From: Eledone cirrhosa
Taxonomy: Eukaryota
Direction: 5' to 3'
NCBI GenBank assembly: GCA_964016885.1
Contig: OZ024763.1
Coordinates: forward strand, 15,128,001 to 15,192,000
Length of the DNA stretch: 64,000 nucleotides
Of the stretch, positions 2,212 to 62,508 are shown one piece after another. Position numbers and translations under genes: made by a program. The notes below the pieces were generated by a model that was not told where the DNA came from, made no database searches, and saw only the letters and a program-made list of their open reading frames with translations. Numbering within the stretch: position 1 is the first letter of the stretch; every line of letters begins with the position of its first letter.

Positions 2212-2630
2212 CTGTGTGTGTGTGTATATTTATATATATTTGGGTGTGTATACAGAAAGAGTGAGAGAGAGACACATCTATGTATATATATATGTATGCA
2301 AACATAACCGTACATATATGCACATACATATAATCTCACGCACACACCCACACACATATATATTATATATATATATATATACACACATATTCTCACTGAC
2401 ACATATATATATATATCATCATTTTGATGATGATATATATATATATGTGTCAGTGAGAATATGTGTGTATATATATACTATATATGTGTGTGGGTGTGTG
2501 CGTGAGATTATATGTATGTGCATATATGTACGGTTATGTTTGCATACATATATATATACATAGATGTGTGTCTCTCTCTCACTCTTTCTGTATACACACC
2601 CAAATATATATAAATATACACACACACACA
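2210..2630. repeat. Long palindrome (about 210-bp arms) made of low-complexity DNA
   Basis: ttctcactgacac...tcatca ttt tgatga...gtgtcagtgagaa. Distinctive words are mirrored, e.g. aaacataaccgtac/gtacggttatgttt and tgggtgtgtatacagaaagagtgag/ctcactctttctgtatacacaccca. Confidence 0.85.
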
Positions 2631-12436: not shown

Positions 12437-12660
12437 AAAAAGTATGACCCCGACGGCAGAGCTCAAGGCGTTTTGACGGCTATTTCTGGACTAAATTAGA
12501 ATTTTTAAAAAATTCTAATTTAGTCCAGAAATAGACGTTGAAACGGCTTGAGCTCTGCCGTCGGGGTCATACTTTTTCCTATTTCCCACTCTACTACCCT
12601 AAGTATTGAGTACTCTGGTGCGTTATGGTCCATTTAGTTCCTTACCACAATTCCTTTGTT
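12432..12660 (+). mobile_element. Second family C fold-back element (palindrome 12432-12582)
   Basis: 75-bp arms around 12507, GAAACGGCttgagctctGCCGTCgggg, same tail as the 6.2 kb copy, (TA)n flanks. Confidence 0.7.
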
Positions 12661-14164: not shown

Positions 14165-14730
14165 GTATTAGTTATACTATTTATGGTTATGTAAATACAA
14201 AACCTTAAGCAGTTATAAGTATTTTACACACACCCTAAATAGTGGTAGGCAGTAATGTATTACTACCTTATTACCAGTAAGTTAAGTAGCTCAATGTAAA
14301 GACATCAGATGATTTACAGAGCAGTTATATGAAATATAAGAATCAAAGGACTGTTCAAAACATTATTGTGCTTACAGCTGTTTCCTCCAAACCGAGGTTT
14401 GGATTCTTCGGAGCAATTTATTAATGCATGGACAGTTATATGACCTCCTTTTCAGCCGAGAGACATACCGATACATATTCAAACATTGATACGTATTCAA
14501 ACATTGTGGGTCAACATTCATTACAGAAACTGTAATGAATGTTGACCCACAATGTTTGAATATGTATCAATGTTTGAATATGTATCGGTATGTCTCTCGG
14601 CTGAAAAGGAGGTCATATAACTGTCCATGCATTAATAAATTGCTCCGAAGAATCCAAACCTCGGTTTGGAGGAAACAGCTGTAAGCACAATAATGTTTTG
14701 AACAGTCTTTTGATTCTTATATTTCATATA
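14165..14730 (-). mobile_element. Fold-back hammerhead element family E (palindrome 14326-14730, 201-bp arms, 3-nt loop)
   Basis: Arms are near-identical around cag-aaa-ctg at 14528. The unique tail 14165-14325 runs into (TA)n. Confidence 0.75.
14641..14687 (+). ncRNA. Hammerhead motif with U4>C variant core (mirror 14369-14415 on minus)
   Basis: tgct-CCGAAGA-a tccaaacc tc ggtttgga g-GAAA-cagctg-TA-agca. Confidence 0.65.
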
Positions 14731-25832: not shown

Positions 25833-26104
25833 AATGATGATGATATATACAGAAAGAAAGACATTTATATACGGAGAGAGAGAAGGGGAAAAGATGAAGA
25901 GAAAGAGATATGAAGAGAAAGAGAGAAATGGAGAGATGAAGGGAGAGAGAGAGGGGGGGGGGGAGATGAAGAGATAGAGAGAGAGAGAGATAAAATATAA
26001 ACTGACAGATAGAGAGATGGAGAGATGAAGGGAGAGATAGTGAGAGAAAGAGAGACATAGAGAGATGGCGACAGAGATACATAGAGATAGATAGGGAGAC
26101 TCAC

Positions 26105-26634
26105 CTTTTTCTTGTAGCGGACACTTCCACTTCTCTTGAGTGTACCACCCTTCACGACATCATCTTGTACTTCAATTTTTACTCCATCTGCGGCTGTGCG
26201 GACACTAAGCTCCAAAAGTTCAGGCACTGGTTGGACTTTCAACACAACAGAATCCGTCGAAGTCCGGATCATTTCGATAATTTCTTCTCTTTTGGCCTTC
26301 TCCACATTTTTATCGTTGACCTCGATTAGTCGGTCACCGGGTAATAGGCCGGTCTCGGTGGCTTTTGCTCCCGTGCCAGGTTCTGCGAAGATGACCGTCT
26401 GCTTGGTTCCGAAACAGTCCGTGTTATTTCGTTGCATGACGACACCCTTGCGGAGAGAGAAGCCGAAGTCACCCCCAGGCTGTCGTCTCAGGGTCAGGGT
26501 TCGAATGCGTCCGGGTCGGGGCGGGACTATGGAGGGCAGATGGAGATCAAAGCCAAACGTCTTTTCAGCTGGGCTCGTAGGGGGTGGAGGGATTGCCCCG
26601 GCCGCTTCATCCTCTGTCGCCATCTTTGGACGGT
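26105..26634 (-). CDS. MYO18A: Exon encoding the N-terminal PDZ domain of unconventional myosin-XVIII (MYO18A-like)
   Basis: Translation DLHLPSIVPP..LRRQPGGDFGFSLRK..VIFAEPGTG..GLLPGDRLIEVNDKNVEKAKREEIIEMIRTSTDSVVLKVQPVPELLELS matches the myosin-18 PDZ motifs as I recall them (GDFGFSLR, FAEPG, LxPGDRL, LKVQPxPEL). Acceptor tttttttaatcgtag| at 26634 (phase 1), donor AAG|gtgagt at 26105 (phase 0). ATG at 26623 is in a good Kozak context (AAGATGG). Confidence 0.93.
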
Positions 26635-27758
26635 CTACGATTAAAAAAAAAATAATAATAATAATAATAATAATAATAATTAAAATCTAATAAAAAGGGA
26701 GGAAAAAATTTTTTCGGAATTTGAAAATATAGTCGCCACAGTGCTGATAACTACAGTAATAGTTGATAACTATAAATAATAGTTGAATACATCAACTAAA
26801 GTACCCCTGGGGTCAGGAAAATGGAGTGAGAGAGACACCTACAGGGAATTGGTCCACATATGTCTTGCATGCTGCACAAGCATGTTAAGAATACGAAAAC
26901 AAAAATCAATCAATTTTCTTGTTAATTTTGGGGGGCTTTGGGGGGAGGTTTTTTGGAGGGGGTCATGGGAAGGCTGGAGGAGTTTTGTTGTTTTCTTTAC
27001 CTAGTGTTTAAAAAATCGTCTCCATTTTGCTTGTGCTGTTCTGCAGAGAATAAACCGAAATACTTTATTAAGTCTCAGTCTGGCATGTTACTTGTACGTA
27101 TTCCATTAAATAATATTGACAAAGTGGACAAATATTTCATCAAAACTGGAGACAATGAAATACATTTTATGTGGTTCCATAGTGTTTAGAATAATGAGGT
27201 GAAAAGATGACACACACACACATACAAAGGCATACATACACAGATGCAAACACATACAGACACACACACACACACACACACACAAAGGCATACATACACA
27301 AGGACACACACACACACAAAGGCAGACACAAACACACACATACACGGGCAGACACACAAATACACACACAAAGGCATACATACACAGACACAAACACATA
27401 CATACATGTGCAGACACCCACACACACACAAAGCATACATACACATACACACACACATGCAGACACACACATACATATGCAGACATACACACTCACGCAT
27501 GCAGACATACACACACACATGCAGACACACACACACGTGTAGGCATACATAAACACACACACACGTGTAGGCATACATAAACACACACACACTGGAGGCA
27601 GCAACCATCTGTAAAATACACACAGATCATGTGACAAAAACCATCACCTCTGCCACCATAACCATCATCACCCCAAACATCAGCACAAACACTAACAACA
27701 TTACTACCACTATCATATACATTCACAAAACTCTACAAGCTGTTGACTCCTTAATTTG

Positions 27759-32223: not shown

Positions 32224-32752
32224 CATCATCATTTTACATCCACTTTTCCCTGCTTGCAAGGGTTGGACGGGTCCTATTCAGCACAGCATCTCTCCACTTG
32301 TCACGGTCCTTCGTCATCTCCTCCATGAGCTTCAGCGATCTGAGGTCTGCTCTCACCACGTCCGCCCATGTTTTTCATGGGCTACCCCCTACTGCGTCTT
32401 CCTTCTACTGGGATTTCTTGGCACTTCGTTACCCAGCGGTCATCCTCCATACCATCTCAGCCTTCTCTCCTGCACACCACAACTTATCCCTCTTATACCC
32501 AGTTTCTTTCTCAACTCGTCCATGATTGGTCGTTCACGCACATTGACTTTGCACATCCAACGGAGCATACTTGCTTCATTTCTCTCCAGCCGTCGCATAT
32601 CTTCTGCAGTTGCTGCCCATGTCTCACAACCATGCAGCATCGCGCATCTCACACAGGCATCATATGACCGTCCTTTCGTACGCAGAGAGAAACCCTTCTT
32701 AGTCAACAGAGGAAGCAGCTCCCTAAACTTCTTCCAACCTGTCCTTATTCTA
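32224..32752 (-). mobile_element. 5'-truncated RTE LINE
   Basis: SRIRTGWKKFRELLPLLT..AMLHGCETWAATAEDMRRLERNEASMLRWMC..ERRLRWYG, with a (GAT)n tail. Confidence 0.88.
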
Positions 32753-32817
32753 GATACTATATATATTCCAATTCCCCACCCCGCCCACCCCTTCAATCTT
32801 TCTAATTTCTCATTCTT

Positions 32818-32853
32818 TCTTCTGATGAAGGACTAGCATCTGAAACGTTAAGA
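32818..32853 (+). ncRNA. Ultra-minimal hammerhead motif (36 nt)
   Basis: tctt-CTGATGA-aggactagcatct-GAAA-cg-TT-aaga. Loopless palindromic stem III (AACGTT), then a tail of about 90 nt and (TA)n. Confidence 0.65.
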
Positions 32854-39150: not shown

Positions 39151-39300
39151 TGATTACATTTTATTCAGGTCACTATAACAACTTTGACCTCAACATAGAG
39201 GTTACAGTACAATCTTTCCTAACCTTTGACCTCTCCTTCATTTTGATTTCCTATGGCCTGCTAAAGTCTGCTCACTGTAATACACATATGTGTGTATGTG

Positions 39301-39353
<53 letters not shown>

Positions 39354-39432
39354 GTAGGTCCCCCCCCCCCGGGTTGAGTCGGGGATAACCACAGTAAGTA
39401 AGGTACTCAATACATGGCAGAGTAAAATTTTT

Positions 39433-39552
39433 TATTTTATAGAAGGAGCTTCTACAGGACTAGTACTGTTTCATTCAGATGAAATCTTCAGGAAGCTTCC
39501 TGAAGATTTCATCTGAATGAAACAGTACTAGTCCTGTAGAAGCTCCTTCTAT

Positions 39553-39558
<6 letters not shown>
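39433..39558. repeat. Perfect spacerless 126-bp palindrome (element tail at 39352-39432)
   Basis: Axis ggaag|cttcc at 39495/39496, 63-bp arms. Confidence 0.92.
39494..39544 (+). ncRNA. Type I hammerhead motif (identical mirror 39447-39497 on minus)
   Basis: agcttc-CTGAAGA-t ttc atct gaa t-GAAA-cag tactagtc ctg-TA-gaagct. Confidence 0.7.
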
Positions 39559-39589
<31 letters not shown>

Positions 39590-39605
39590 ATTACAGTGAG
39601 CAGAC

Positions 39606-39637
<32 letters not shown>

Positions 39638-40129
39638 ATTACAGTGAGCAGACATAATGTGTGTATATATATATATATATATGTTTGTGTGTGTCGAGAT
39701 ATAGATATATATATATGTGTGTGTGTTGAGATGTGTGTGTGTGTGTGCCTGTGTGTCTGTGTGTGTATGTGTGTGAGTGTGAGTGTATGTGTGAGTGTTT
39801 AAGTATGAGTGTGAGTGTGTGTATCACCTTCACAGCTTAATGTCTTTTCCATGCTCTCATGAGTTGGACATTATGAGACAAATCAGATCAGGTGACCATG
39901 TCTTGCAAATGGGTGTGTTTGTGTGTGTGAGGTGTGTGAGGTGTGTGAGGTGTGTGAGGTGTGTGAGGTGTGTGTGTGTGTGTGTGTTTAAAGTGTAGAA
40001 ATATACGAGACCCCCAGTAGACAATTGATGAGGAAAACCCCCCCTCCCCCCCACCGTTCTTGCTTTCTTCGTATTCCCACTGCATTTTAAGTTACCTGAA
40101 ATAGCAACTACACAGCCATTTCTATTCTC

Positions 40130-40510: not shown

Positions 40511-40710
40511 NNNNNNNNNNNNNNNNNNNNNNNNNNNNNNNNNNNNNNNNNNNNNNNNNNNNNNNNNNNNNNNNNNNNNNNNNNNNNNNNNNNNNNNNNN
40601 NNNNNNNNNNNNNNNNNNNNNNNNNNNNNNNNNNNNNNNNNNNNNNNNNNNNNNNNNNNNNNNNNNNNNNNNNNNNNNNNNNNNNNNNNNNNNNNNNNNN
40701 NNNNNNNNNN
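40511..40710. other. Assembly gap (200 N)
   Basis: Run of N. Confidence 1.
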
Positions 40711-41529: not shown

Positions 41530-42232
41530 TCATCATCATCATCGTTTTACATCCGTTCTTCCGTGCTAGCATGGGTTAGACAGGTTGTCCTGTTGTGGGC
41601 AGTGTCTGGTCGGCTGACCATGCCTTGCTGACCATGCCTTGCTCATACAGGAACTGATTTTGGCTTGATTTCTACAGCTGGATGCCCTTCCTAACACCAA
41701 CCTCATTTATAGTGAGTGCTGGGTGCTTTTGTTTTCCGTGGCGCCTACACGTCCACTTTACAGTGTGGGCTGGGTGCTTTTTTGCCGTGGCACCTCCACG
41801 GCCACCTTGCAGTGGGAGGGTGTGGGGGCATATTGTCTATATGCTTCAGCTTGTACCCATACGCCAGAGGTCACGGTCATATGTCATCGCCTTTGAGAGG
41901 TGTAATTGGGTAAGGTCGGCTTTTATCACCTCATCCCAGGTCTTCTTGAGTCTCCCCACTCCGCGGTTTCCATTGACTTCTAGTGCTCTGCACCTTTTTA
42001 TGCAGCTGTCATCCTTCATCCGCATCATATGTCCATACCAACGCAACCGCCTCTCCTGCACACAGCATTTGATTCCTCTTATGCTCAGTCTCTCTCTCAA
42101 TTCATTTATGCTTTGTCGTTCGCGTATATTACTATTACACATCCATCGGAGCATGCAGACTTCGTTTCTTTCTAATCTACGTAAGTCTTCCACCTTCAGC
42201 ACCCAGGTCTCACTACCATGTAACATTGCTGT
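41530..42232 (-). mobile_element. 5'-truncated RTE LINE with a 3' UTR shared with SINE family 1
   Basis: MLHGSETWVLKVEDLRRLERNE..ERRLRWYGHMMRM..DRDLWR, then the ttggtgttaggaagggcatccagctgtag tail. Confidence 0.88.
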
Positions 42233-43029
42233 TCCCCATGCTAGCGTGGAAGAACGGACGTAAAACGGTGATTATGATGATGATGATACACGCATCATAC
42301 AGTCTGCCTTTCATTTTGAGGGAGAAGCCTTTTGCAGCTAGCAGTGGCAGTAGTTCCCTAAACTTCTTTTAGATCACCAACTCTAGCGAGGATGTTGTGC
42401 TATATGATAAACACACCCAGTACATTTTCTGAAGTGGTTGGTAATAGGAAGAGCACCCAGTCAACAAAAGCTTGACAAACAAAGGGTTGGGAGAAACCTT
42501 TAGTTGTGTAAAAGGCATAACAATTACTCTGGTGTTGGTGACCTACATGATAAACACCCAGTACATGCTGTAAAGTGACTACTGATGATAGGAAGAGTAT
42601 CCAGCCATAGAGAACCTGAGAAAGTGTCGGCAGGACCCTTCAGCTGTGTCAAAGTCACGACAACCTCCCTAGTGTTCGTGAATTCCCTGATAAACATACC
42701 CAGTACATTCTGTAAAGTGATTGGTTATAGGAAAGACATCTAGATGTAGAAAACCTGCTAAATAAAGGATCAGGAAGACACTTCAGTTCTTTCAAAGACA
42801 TAACAACCTCCTTGTGTTGAGGCCACAATAAAATGTACTTGGTAAAGTACAAGAGGGTATGTAAGCAAGATGCAGGCTCCTTAACTATCTGAGAGGTCAA
42901 TAGCGCCACTTGAGGTCTGACTCGGTCTGTGAAGACCCATATAACCCTTCTAGCAGAGAAAATAGATGTATGATGATGATGCACACACACACACATACAC
43001 ACATTACATCAGGTTTAGTTTCTCCAATG

Positions 43030-54606: not shown

Positions 54607-54828
54607 TTATATAAGCGATGTGATATAGCGTACGGCTATATGTGATGATATTACGGACGTTAACCGGAGAGAAGTGAATCTTAAAATAAGCTATAGATAA
54701 CTTATAAGAATATTTAGATTTAATTGAGAGCTACAAAATTTAGAAGATAAATTACATAATATTCATTCATGATTTATTCAAGGTACTCCAACTTATTTTA
54801 ATAACGTGTTCAGAAAAAATATCCCTGA

Positions 54829-56434
54829 CACCACATGTCCTCTGCAGTCACTGCCCATGTTTCACTACCATGCAGGCAGCACCACATGTCCTCTGCAGTC
54901 ACTGCCCATGTTTCACTACCATGCAGGCAGCACCACATGTCCTCTGCAGTCACTGCCCATGTTCCACTACCATGCAGGTAGCACCACATGTCCTCTGCAG
55001 TCACTGCCCATGTTTCACTTCCATGCAGGCAGCACCACATGTCCTCTGCAGTCACTGTCCATGTTTCACTACCATGCAGGCAGAACCACATGTCCTCTGC
55101 AGTCACTGCCCATGTTTCACTACCATGCAGGCAGCACCACATGTCCTCTGCAGTCACTGCCCATGTTTCACTACCATGCAGGCAGCACCACATGTCCTCT
55201 GCAGTCACTGCCCATGTTCCACTACCATGCAGGTAGCACCACATGTCCTCTGCAGTCACTGCCCATGTTTCACTTCCATGCAGGCAGCACCACATGTCCT
55301 CTGCAGTCACTGTCCATGTTTCACTACCATGCAGGCAGAACCACATGTCCTCTGCAGTCACTGTCCATGTTTCACTACCATGCAGGCAGCACCACATGTC
55401 CTCTGCAGTCACTGCCCATGTTTCACTACCATGCAGGTAGCACCACATGTCCTCTGCAGTCACTGCCCATGTTTCACTTCCATGCAGGCAGCACCACATG
55501 TCCTCTGCAGTCACTGTCCATGTTTCACTACCATGCAGGCAGAACCACATGTCCTCTGCAGTCACTGCCCATGTTTCACTACCATGCAGGCAGCACCACA
55601 TGTCCTCTGCAGTCACTGCCCATGTTTCACTACCATGCAGGCAGCACCACATGTCCTCTGCAGTCACTGCCCATGTTTCACTACCATGCAGGCAGCACCA
55701 CATGTCCTCTGCAGTCACTGCCCATGTTTCACTACCATGCAGGCGGCACCACATGTCCTCTGCAGTCACTGCCCATGTTTCACTACCATGCAGGCAGCAC
55801 CACATGTCCTCTGCAGTCACTGCCCATGTTTCACTACCATGCAGGCAGCACCACATGTCCCCTGCAGTCACTGCCCATGTTCCACTACCATGCAGGCAGC
55901 ACCACATGTCCTCTGCAGTCACTGCCCATGTTTCACTACCATGCAGGCAGCACCACATGTCCTCTGCAGTCACTGTCCATGTTTCACTACCATGCAGGCA
56001 GCACCACATGTCCTCTGCAGTCACTGCCCATGTTTCACTACCATGCAGGCAGCACCACATGTCCTCTGCAGTCACTGCCCATGTTTCACTTCCATGCAGG
56101 CAGCACCACATGTCCTCTGCAGTCACTGTCCATGTTTCACTACCATGCAGGCAGCACCACATGTCCTCTGCAGTCACTGTCCATGTTTCACTACCATGCA
56201 GGCAGCACCACATGTTCTCTGCAGTCACTGCCCATGTTTCACTACCATGCAGGCAGCACCACATGTCCTCTGCAGTCACTGTCCATGTTTCACTACCATG
56301 CAGGCAGCACCACATGTCCTCTGCAGTCACTGTCCATGTTTCACTACCATGCAGGCAGCACCACATGTCCTCTGCAGTCACTGTCCATGTTTCACTACCA
56401 TGCAGGCAGCACCACATGTACTCTGCAGTCACTG
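54829..56434 (-). repeat. 51-bp minisatellite (about 31.5 units) derived from RTE LINE coding sequence
   Basis: The unit translates as LHGSETWAVTAEDMWCC, compared with RTE LHGCETWAATAEDMRRL at 32.6 kb. Confidence 0.92.
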
Positions 56435-56622
56435 GTGGATTGGCAGTATCAGTAGAGGATCGGACGCCATGCTTTGACGCATAGAGTTACGGCCCTTGCC
56501 ATTCTGAGTTCAAATCCCGCCGAGGTTAACTTTGCCTTTCATCCTTACAGGATCAATAAAATAAAGTACCAGTAATGCACTGGGGTAATTGCTGGCCTTG
56601 TACCAAAAGTAGAAACAATTAT
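56434..56622 (+). mobile_element. SINE family 2, full-length-like copy
   Basis: gtggattggcagtatcagtagagg...tgagttcaaatcccgcc...aaagtagaaacaattat. Confidence 0.8.
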
Positions 56623-60874: not shown

Positions 60875-62312
60875 ATCATCATCATCATCGTTTAACGTCC
60901 ATTTTCCACGCTAGCATGGGTTAGGCGGGAGTTGTCCCACTTGAGGCAAGGCTGGTCGGGTGACCGTGTCTCGTTCACATAGGACTATCTGGCAGGTTTT
61001 CTACGGCTGGATGCCCTTCCTAACACCAACTACATTTACAGTGTGGAACTGGGAACTTTGTACCGTGTTACCTACACGGCCACATTACAGCGTGGACTGT
61101 GTGTGTGTTTTTTTTGTCGTGACACCTACACGAACTCGATCTCATTTTCTTGTGCTGTTGGTGGGTGTGGGAGGATAGGGTAGGGGTAGTAGATTGGGGT
61201 GTATATTTGGTTAAGAGGTGCCTACTGACTGTAGGTTTCGCTTTGTACATAGGCAAGGCGGGTCTTCTGTATTACTGCATGGTGCGAAAGATCTGTCCAG
61301 AGACATTGTCTTGGAGAGGTGTAAGTGTGTGAGGTCGGAATTTATCAGATCATCCCAGGATTTTCTGGGTCTACCTACTCCGTAACTACCATAAATTTTG
61401 ATCGCCCTGCACTTTTTTATGCAGCTGTCGTCTTTCATGCGCATCACGTGACCATACCAACATAGTCTTCTCTCAAGTAAACAGCATCTGATCCCTCTTA
61501 TTCCTAATTTCTCACTGAGTTCATTTATGCTTTGCCGTTCACGTATATTACTATTACACATCCAACGGAGCATGCATGCTTCATTACTTTCCAGTCTACG
61601 CAGATCCTCTGCACGTAATGCCCATGTCTCACTGCCAAGTAGCATTGCTCTTCGTATACAGGCATCCTACAATCTGCCTTTCATTTTTAGAGAGAAACAT
61701 TTTGTGGCCAACAGCGGTATCAGCTCTCTGAACTTTTTCCATCCCGTTCTGACTCTGGCTACTGTACTTTCAGAACACCCTCCACCACTGCTGATTTCGT
61801 CACCCAGGTAACGGAAAGTGTCTACTATTTCTATAGAACCATCTGGGCAATGGAAGGAGCTAGTATCCTTTGGACACTTGCTACTTATTGCACCTGAGCA
61901 TTGGCCACATATAAAGTCTACCTTCTTAGATAGTTTACCTGTGATCCCACTACATCTTTTATGTACCCATACTTTGCATTTGGGACATAAAATGGAATTT
62001 CTGCCTACTCCTTTCCTACACACTGAGCATGGCCATTTCCCTGAGGGCACCTGTGCCCTATTTTCCTTTCTACAAACTAGAACTTTAGTCTTAGACAAGT
62101 CAACTTTAAGGCCATGCTTCCATGTTTCGAATTTCTTCTCTAGTTCAGCCATTGATTCAGCTAGGAGCGTTAGATCATCTGCGTATAGGAGTTCCCATGG
62201 GCAGCCGGTCTTGAACTCCTCTGTTAAAGCCTGAAGGGTAATAATAAATAAGAGGGGGCTAAGGACAGAGCCTTGATGAACGCCAACTTTTACACTAAAA
62301 GATCTCCATATT
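60875..62312 (-). mobile_element. 5'-truncated RTE LINE: RT motifs, Cys/His finger, C-terminus and 3' UTR
   Basis: GVHQGSVLSPLLF, LLYADDL, WPCSVC..ILCPKCKVWVHKRC..FICGQC, FRYLG. Premature stop at about 61667. Confidence 0.92.
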
Positions 62313-62508
62313 GTATGAGGGATCAAATTTGTGACCTAATCTCCTGGATATGTGGTCAATATTCGGTCTTAAAACATAACATAAATAAATAATATATCAG
62401 CTCTCATACCAGATTGAGCAACTTTTTCCTTTTTCACATCTATGCATATTAATTACATATACACAAAGACATATTGTAATAATAAATGTGAAGACTAAAA
62501 TCCGAAGA

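What the first reader, a model, noticed from the sequence alone, without database searches (positions are those of the whole stretch)
39433..39558. Perfect palindrome that encodes a complete hammerhead on both strands
The 126-bp spacerless palindrome has its axis inside the 5' strand of stem I (ag|cttc), so each strand encodes agcttc-CUGAAGA-stem II-GAAA-cag..cug-UA-gaagcu. Stem I is partly self-complementary (AAGCTT), which could have primed the snap-back. A transcript would face competition between a 63-bp dsRNA hairpin and the ribozyme fold, so the fold-back may silence a ribozyme that would otherwise cut the host intron (inference).
Basis: partly seen in the sequence, partly recalled or inferred. 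Interest (0 to 1): 0.75.

Follow-up and report, generated by a model that had tools for sequence, protein, structure and literature searches.

The report
Penelope palindromes mark capped RNA start
This mirror-image DNA is one of about 1,500 tiny insertions left by a Penelope-type jumping gene, likely made when the first 60-145 bases of its RNA are copied twice at a landing site and joined head to head, so it likely marks where that RNA starts rather than serving to silence its ribozyme.

Summary
The 126-bp perfect palindrome and both hammerhead motifs are real but not unique. Head-to-head copies occur at about 604 loci, plus 897 in a sister subfamily whose stem I is not self-complementary. The arms are the 5' leader of a Hydra-clade Penelope-like retroelement (RT plus GIY-YIG) inserted in (TA)n.

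In 95 fetched loci, no arm (0 of 190) passes more than one base beyond the first A of stem I. A TATA box lies 29-30 bases upstream of that A in native copies. Free arm ends often carry an extra C (35 of 60). 94 of 95 loci pair one long with one short arm.

Best reading (inferred): both nicked target strands prime reverse transcription at two internal sites, both cDNAs run off the capped, uncleaved RNA start, and they are joined head to head. The self-complementary AGCT only supplies microhomology for this perfect junction (133 loci). Silencing by the hairpin would be a by-product; a host intron is unshown.

The architecture is published, and this scan noted similar stubs in other genomes. I found no paper reporting the TATA/cap signature.

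The parts
39352..39497 (-). Long arm: 5' leader of a Hydra-clade Penelope-like element, from the inferred RNA start (A at 39497) through the hammerhead to the 'tail' end at about +145; it carries an 8-base homopolymer expansion at 39360-39370
   Evidence: Same sequence precedes the ORF in tandem full-length copies L089 and L093; coordinates
39494..39558 (+). Short arm: the same leader from the inferred RNA start (A at 39494) to the AT-rich site at about +65
39494..39497 (.). Axis: 4-bp AGCT overlap shared by both arms (microhomology join); the same axis occurs at 133 loci
39494..39544 (+). Type I hammerhead motif of Hydra type (6-bp stem I, 3-bp stem II closed by U/U, 4-bp stem III with 8-nt loop); predicted cut after A39538
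39447..39497 (-). Mirror hammerhead motif on the minus strand
39559..39584 (.). (TA)n target repeat, right flank
39306..39351 (.). (TA)n then (CA)n repeat, left flank

Best explanation
The palindrome is a miniature insertion of a Hydra-clade Penelope-like retroelement, made of two copies of the element's 5' leader joined head to head in a (TA)n tract, likely because both nicked target strands primed reverse transcription and both cDNAs likely ran off the capped, uncleaved 5' end of the RNA. Shown: family identity, copy numbers, asymmetric arms, (TA)n flanks, a hard wall at the first A of stem I, a TATA box 29-30 nt upstream of it, and an excess of an extra C at free ends. Inferred: (1) that A is the transcription start; (2) the extra C is the copied cap G; (3) reverse transcription starts internally at about +145 on one strand and about +60 to +75 on the other; (4) both copies come from one RNA or one source element; (5) the two cDNA ends are joined by end joining or a template jump, here through the 4-bp AGCT overlap. 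The hammerhead would mostly be uncut in the RNA that gets copied. Hairpin silencing of the ribozyme in a read-through transcript would follow from the geometry and is not a selected function.
For: Family: the native upstream body is a 2-kb microsatellite-rich 3' region preceded by an RT + GIY-YIG ORF. Tandem copies show leader then ORF. The model has pLDDT 89 and its best Foldseek hits are telomerase RTs. Hydra motifs are present. Hard wall: 0 of 190 arms extend more than 1 nt past the A although spacers up to 30 were allowed. TATA lies at -29 in 47 of 51 subfamily-A native copies and at -30 in 3 of 4 subfamily-B copies, with a diverged spacer between. The extra C occurs at 14 of 24 (A) and 21 of 36 (B) free ends, P=5e-4 and 2e-5 against 25%, and on both arms in 4 of 12 and 5 of 18 loci. 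Genome-wide, 606 arms read stem+N+C where native DNA has G. Letters after the C vary, so there is no constant upstream exon. One long plus one short arm occurs in 94 of 95 loci, and 190 of 190 arms end in a TA-type repeat. Longer inverted copies show the same long/short ends but join at scattered internal points, mostly with short overlaps. Arms starting at the ribozyme cut site are rare: 26 by a pattern that sees about 9/16 of them, against 9 at a control site, and about half fit a 6-bp stem I overlap. In vitro, a Penelope/Poseidon protein nicks and extends both strands, starts at two internal sites and uses uncut RNA (PMC11167929). An extra G from the cap is described for full-length L1 insertions (PMC11702581).
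Against: No RNA 5'-end data exist for this family; the RNA runs were contigs of other organisms. Some extra Cs may be templated filler, because nearby sequence begins with C, and the 25% null is rough. About 40% of free ends lack the C, and in many ends the base before it is not the expected T (44 of the first 100 rows, counted by eye), which is unexplained. The two arms always share a variant (43 of 43 B loci, 13 discordant expected), and no A/B hybrid exists. That fits one RNA copied twice but also fits one arm copied from the other. The loci examined were the first listed on one contig, not a random draw. The in vitro precedent is from a different clade. D. virilis Penelope has a TATA-less internal promoter (PMC2377424), so the promoter type is not general.
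Confidence: 0.7

Rival explanations
1. Snap-back self-priming: one cDNA (or an antisense template) folds back at stem I and copies itself to give the second arm. This is the first reader's mechanism and is close to the self-priming proposal of Arkhipova et al. 2013.
For: AGCT is self-complementary and perfect axes are enriched in this subfamily (9 of 50 against 1 of 45). Arms share variants in 43 of 43 B loci and no hybrid was found. Proposed in PMC3846280.
Against: 897 loci form at the same site without a self-complementary stem. This axis would need a 2-nt loop. Several junctions keep both terminal Cs 0-1 base apart. Long inverted copies have arms truncated at unrelated points.
Confidence: 0.12
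2. The wall is not an RNA start but a structure-dependent stop of the RT at the base of stem I, or a processing site. The sequence there reads CAG, and the D. virilis intron ends at helix I.
For: The wall coincides with the 5' edge of stem I. The intron/helix I coincidence is reported in PMC4209133. Some RTs add non-templated C (recalled).
Against: About half of the core copies read straight through this site. TATA spacing is conserved in both subfamilies. Arms retain the AG that splicing would remove, and no constant upstream exon follows.
Confidence: 0.1
3. A self-propagating palindromic mini-element (MITE- or retrozyme-like) copied as a unit from a master palindrome.
For: 133 loci share this exact axis; the arm layout is regular.
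Against: 19 spacer lengths among 50 loci and varied fillers. The same junction occurs with long and short arms swapped (L012 against L029). The units lack the TATA box.
Confidence: 0.05
4. The fold-back was selected to silence a ribozyme that would cut a host intron.
For: The hairpin is predicted to outcompete the ribozyme fold by about 100 kcal/mol.
Against: The geometry follows from the insertion mechanism at more than 1,500 loci. Many unmirrored copies persist. The lone motif folds poorly. No intron was shown.
Confidence: 0.03

Closest known systems
Hydra-clade EN+ Penelope-like elements (Craig et al. 2021, PMC8557442; passages, section 11 and supplement part 2 read)
   Same: Single ORF of about 700 aa with RT and C-terminal GIY-YIG; RW[K/R], DKT, CxCX5C, CxxC and CxH motifs; (TA)n target; hammerhead with the core/U...U/GAA layout that many listed Hydra elements have.
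   Different: A 2-kb microsatellite-rich 3' region makes it longer than the listed <3-kb elements. The hammerhead sequence matches none of those in File S2 (by eye). Thousands of leader-only palindromic stubs are not described in the parts read.
Inverted-pLTR insertion architecture with optional tail (Pen2a_Av and others, PMC3846280, passages read; PMC8557442 Fig. 2 legend)
   Same: Head-to-head inverted 5'-truncated copy, tail on one end only, palindrome at the junction, TATA and initiator-like motif noted in the pLTR.
   Different: Here the whole insert is two leaders. The junction sits at one base tied to a TATA box and carries an extra C, which points to a capped sense template rather than the proposed antisense self-priming. 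The tail difference is about 75-85 nt, not 30-40.
Anolis PAc in vitro reaction (Frangieh et al. 2024, PMC11167929; parts 1-2 of 4 read)
   Same: Both strands nicked and extended in AT-rich DNA; two internal RT start sites just downstream of the hammerhead; uncut RNA used.
   Different: Penelope/Poseidon clade; the parts read do not describe the 5' end of the products or their head-to-head joining.
L1 twin priming and the extra G from the cap (PMC11702581, passages read)
   Same: Second target strand primes internally; inverted junction by end joining; extra G at full-length 5' ends.
   Different: L1 twin priming inverts a different 5' segment; here both cDNAs copy the same leader, giving a duplication.
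Non-LTR retrozymes (bioRxiv 10.64898/2026.07.22.740005, part 1 and passages read)
   Same: Non-coding, hammerhead-bearing derivative of a PLE pLTR.
   Different: Retrozymes are head-to-tail tandems; these units are head-to-head and promoterless.

Membership tests
Hydra-clade EN+ PLE | Single ORF with telomerase-like RT | tested here: met
   754-codon open frame with YRDD; best Foldseek hits TERT, E 2e-9; no Pfam or PDB sequence hit
Hydra-clade EN+ PLE | C-terminal GIY-YIG endonuclease | tested here: met
   VY...YIG..F..R motif near the C-terminus (by eye); homologue P0016 hits PF01541 weakly, E 0.006, below the cut-off
Hydra-clade EN+ PLE | RWK, DKT, CxCX5C linker, CxxC and CxH motifs | tested here: met
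   RWR, DKT, CxCX5C, CxxC and CxH read in P0001 against the list
Hydra-clade EN+ PLE | Insertion in (TA)n | tested here: met
   190 of 190 arms end in a TA-type repeat by a loose pattern
Hydra-clade EN+ PLE | Element generally under 3 kb | tested here: not met
   hammerhead-to-hammerhead distance in L089 is about 4.3 kb
Hydra-clade EN+ PLE | Placement in the Hydra clade on an RT tree | not tested
   no reference proteins were fetched
Type I hammerhead ribozyme | Core CUGANGA, GAAA, UH with stems I and III | tested here: met
   the sister subfamily differs at 7 of 51 positions: one compensatory pair in stem I, the rest at N7 and in loops
Type I hammerhead ribozyme | G10.1-C11.1 pair and a stable stem II | tested here: not met
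   U/U closing and 3 bp; the same U/U layout is common in listed Hydra motifs; no Rfam match
Type I hammerhead ribozyme | Self-cleavage as monomer or dimer | not testable with these tools
   needs an assay; the genomic trace of cut RNA is weak
Non-LTR retrozyme | Head-to-tail tandem units, each with a hammerhead | tested here: not met
   single head-to-head unit
MITE or self-copying palindrome | Uniform unit copied as a whole | tested here: not met
   19 spacer lengths in 50 loci

The most novel reading that the evidence does not exclude
Penelope-like elements insert by reciprocal twin priming. One capped mRNA is copied from two internal sites onto both nicked strands, the downstream RT displaces the upstream cDNA, both copy the cap, and the ends are sealed head to head. 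Each stub is then a fossil strong-stop product that maps the promoter, both RT start sites and the uncut state of the ribozyme, and it explains the inverted-pLTR-plus-tail architecture of the whole class. The more than 1,500 perfect hairpins would also be a self-made source of dsRNA against the element's own leader.
Probability: 0.4. Interest if true: 0.72.

Novelty: new variant of a known kind. Interest (0 to 1): 0.5.

Why it matters
How Penelope-like elements build their inverted ends, and whether their hammerheads cut in vivo, are stated open questions (PMC8557442; PMC11167929). These stubs give base-level predictions that one CAGE run and one in vitro assay can test: the RNA start, cap copying, two RT start sites and an uncut template. 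They argue against the published antisense self-priming idea. As a locus, this copy is an ordinary by-product.

Tried and rejected
DNA similarity search of the own genome found nothing (the tool skips common words), so exact patterns were used. Rfam gave no hammerhead hit, only generic hairpin matches below cut-off. Pfam and PDB sequence searches of the element protein were blank. Run search: no RNA holder listed. Contigs of four guessed-RNA runs from other organisms cover the leader and part of the ORF, but contigs cannot show a start or a level, so they were not used for the RNA start. A ribozyme-cut 5' end as the main template was rejected: 14 loci are centred downstream of the core, about 1 with both arms at the cut. 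An A/B hybrid search gave 0. A control for the extra C at internal junctions of long copies was attempted; most junctions were overlaps or lay in low-complexity DNA, so it gave no usable count. No dimer prediction of the protein was obtained. PMC5785218 (dimer cleavage of PLE hammerheads) is not held and was not read. The host-intron claim could not be tested without annotation. The species was not determined.

Full report
Observation. The stretch 39433-39558 is a perfect spacerless palindrome with 63-bp arms. Each strand carries a type I hammerhead motif at the stated places. Stem II is 3 bp and closed by U/U, and Rfam reports no hammerhead family. The minus-strand arm goes on to 39352, so the insert is about 146 + 65 nt between TA/CA repeats.

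It is a family. The 26-nt core has 1194 + 1211 exact matches in the 3.0-Gb genome, control 0. Head-to-head pairs with 0-30 nt between the cores number 604 per strand (1 of the first 50 listed was a nested double count), and 133 have this exact axis. A sister subfamily, first seen inside L031, has 897 such loci. Its hammerhead differs at 7 of 51 positions: a compensatory pair in stem I that removes the self-complementary AGCT, N7, three bases of loop II and one of loop III.

Parent element. Unmirrored copies continue upstream into a 2-kb microsatellite-rich region and an ORF. One copy gives a 754-codon open frame. It has 412 homologues, the best about 700 aa. AlphaFold with 98 rows gives pLDDT 89, and Foldseek's best hits are telomerase RTs. 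It shows RWR, DKT, CxCX5C, CxxC and CxH, the motifs listed for the Hydra clade (PMC8557442 section 11). Many listed Hydra hammerheads have the same U/U layout (File S2). In tandem copies L089 and L093 the hammerhead and tail lie directly before the ORF. The palindrome's arms are therefore the element's 5' leader as well as its 3' repeat.

What fixes the axis. I fetched 49 of the first 50 listed A rows (all distinct loci) plus the window, and 45 of the first 50 listed B loci, all from contig C1. In none of 190 arms does native sequence go more than one base past the first A of stem I. A TATA box lies at -29 from that A in 47 of 51 native A copies and at -30 in 3 of 4 native B copies, with a diverged spacer between. 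Where both arms keep the stem and are 12 or more bases apart, the base after the A position is C on the cDNA strand in 14 of 24 and 21 of 36 ends. It is C on both arms in 4 of 12 and 5 of 18 loci; native DNA has G. Genome-wide, 606 A arms read stem+N+C and 1295 read stem+N+not-C (about 73 of the first 100 are TG, mostly native read-through, counted by eye). An extra G on the sense strand marks copied caps in full-length L1 insertions (PMC11702581 passages). I infer a capped RNA start. Weakness: some fillers copy nearby sequence that begins with C, and the base before the C is often not T, which I cannot explain.

Two primers. 94 of 95 loci have exactly one long (tail) arm and one short arm, and all 190 arms end in TA-type repeats. 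Longer inverted insertions show the same pairing of ends but join at scattered internal points, mostly with short overlaps (several of the 17 loci could not be resolved). The purified Anolis PAc protein nicks and extends both strands of AT-rich DNA, starts at two internal sites downstream of the hammerhead and uses uncut RNA (PMC11167929 parts 1-2). Both arms share the variant base in 43 of 43 B loci where 13 discordant were expected, and no A/B hybrid exists. So they come from one RNA or one source at a time. This also fits snap-back, which is why that rival keeps 0.12.

The ribozyme. The isolated 51-mer is predicted to prefer another fold (-9.8 against -6.7 kcal/mol; P of the hammerhead fold about 0.001), and the full palindrome folds at -106.1. 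In either direction the antisense arm is transcribed first, so the motif would be masked, but that follows from head-to-head geometry at every locus. If cut RNA were the template, arms would start at the cut. Only 14 loci are centred downstream of the core, and 26 arms start at the cut against 9 at a control site. About half of these are also explained by the 6-bp stem I overlap. A little cutting is not excluded. Metazoan PLE hammerheads are reported to cut weakly and as dimers (PMC4209133 parts 1-2).

The motifs and the hairpin competition are right. AGCT raises the share of perfect axes (9 of 50 against 1 of 45, p=0.017) but is not needed for the palindrome. A host intron is not shown: the only host exon recognised is a PDZ exon at 25868-26686 on the minus strand.

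Known or new. Inverted 5'-truncated pLTRs, one-sided tails and junction palindromes are published (PMC3846280 passages; PMC8557442 passages), with self-priming on an antisense template as the proposed cause. Paper searches listed no paper reporting PLE inverted junctions fixed at a TATA-linked, cap-marked RNA start. The library lacks most subscription papers, and only one supplement part was read. The scan's notes hold 227 findings in at least 33 genomes with these words, several with the same double-priming or RNA-start reading; these are unchecked AI notes, and my reading was recorded before I saw them. Verdict: a real, recurrent by-product of a known element class whose junctions carry an unusually clear and testable mechanistic signature; interest 0.5.

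Noticed in passing
window 25868-26686 (-): Host exon with a PDZ domain (PF00595, E 1.6e-9), about 13 kb from the palindrome; whether its transcript spans the palindrome is unknown.
   Followed up: partly
window 39266-39289, 39583-39606, 39631-39654: A ~24-bp sequence left of the insert recurs inverted, twice, on the right: the element landed in the central TA tract of an older inverted repeat.
   Followed up: no
window 2372-2477, 14494-14562, 12480-12534: Other perfect inverted repeats with arms of 51, 33 and 27 bp and 1-4 nt spacers.
   Followed up: no
L201 1370-1730: A subfamily-A unit in permuted order (short arm, TA tract, long arm) sits inside the axis of a subfamily-B palindrome.
   Followed up: partly
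junction lists: The base opposite the first A is often A, C or G instead of T, followed by C (18, 16 and 10 of the first 100 rows, by eye); possibly misreading of a modified cap-adjacent A or a start at +2 (inference).
   Followed up: partly
L040 1650-4250: An inverted insertion unit is tandemly triplicated with its flank at about 1060-bp spacing.
   Followed up: no
L213 6960-7060: Another copy of the family lies about 1 kb before the window's start.
   Followed up: no
window 54744-56486; 61211-62335, 41846-42271, 32440-32832: LINE-type RT fragments (label recalled, not scanned) and a long tandem array whose unit translates like a short piece of these fragments.
   Followed up: no
window 40511-40710: 200-base N run about 950 bases to the right of the finding.
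   Followed up: no
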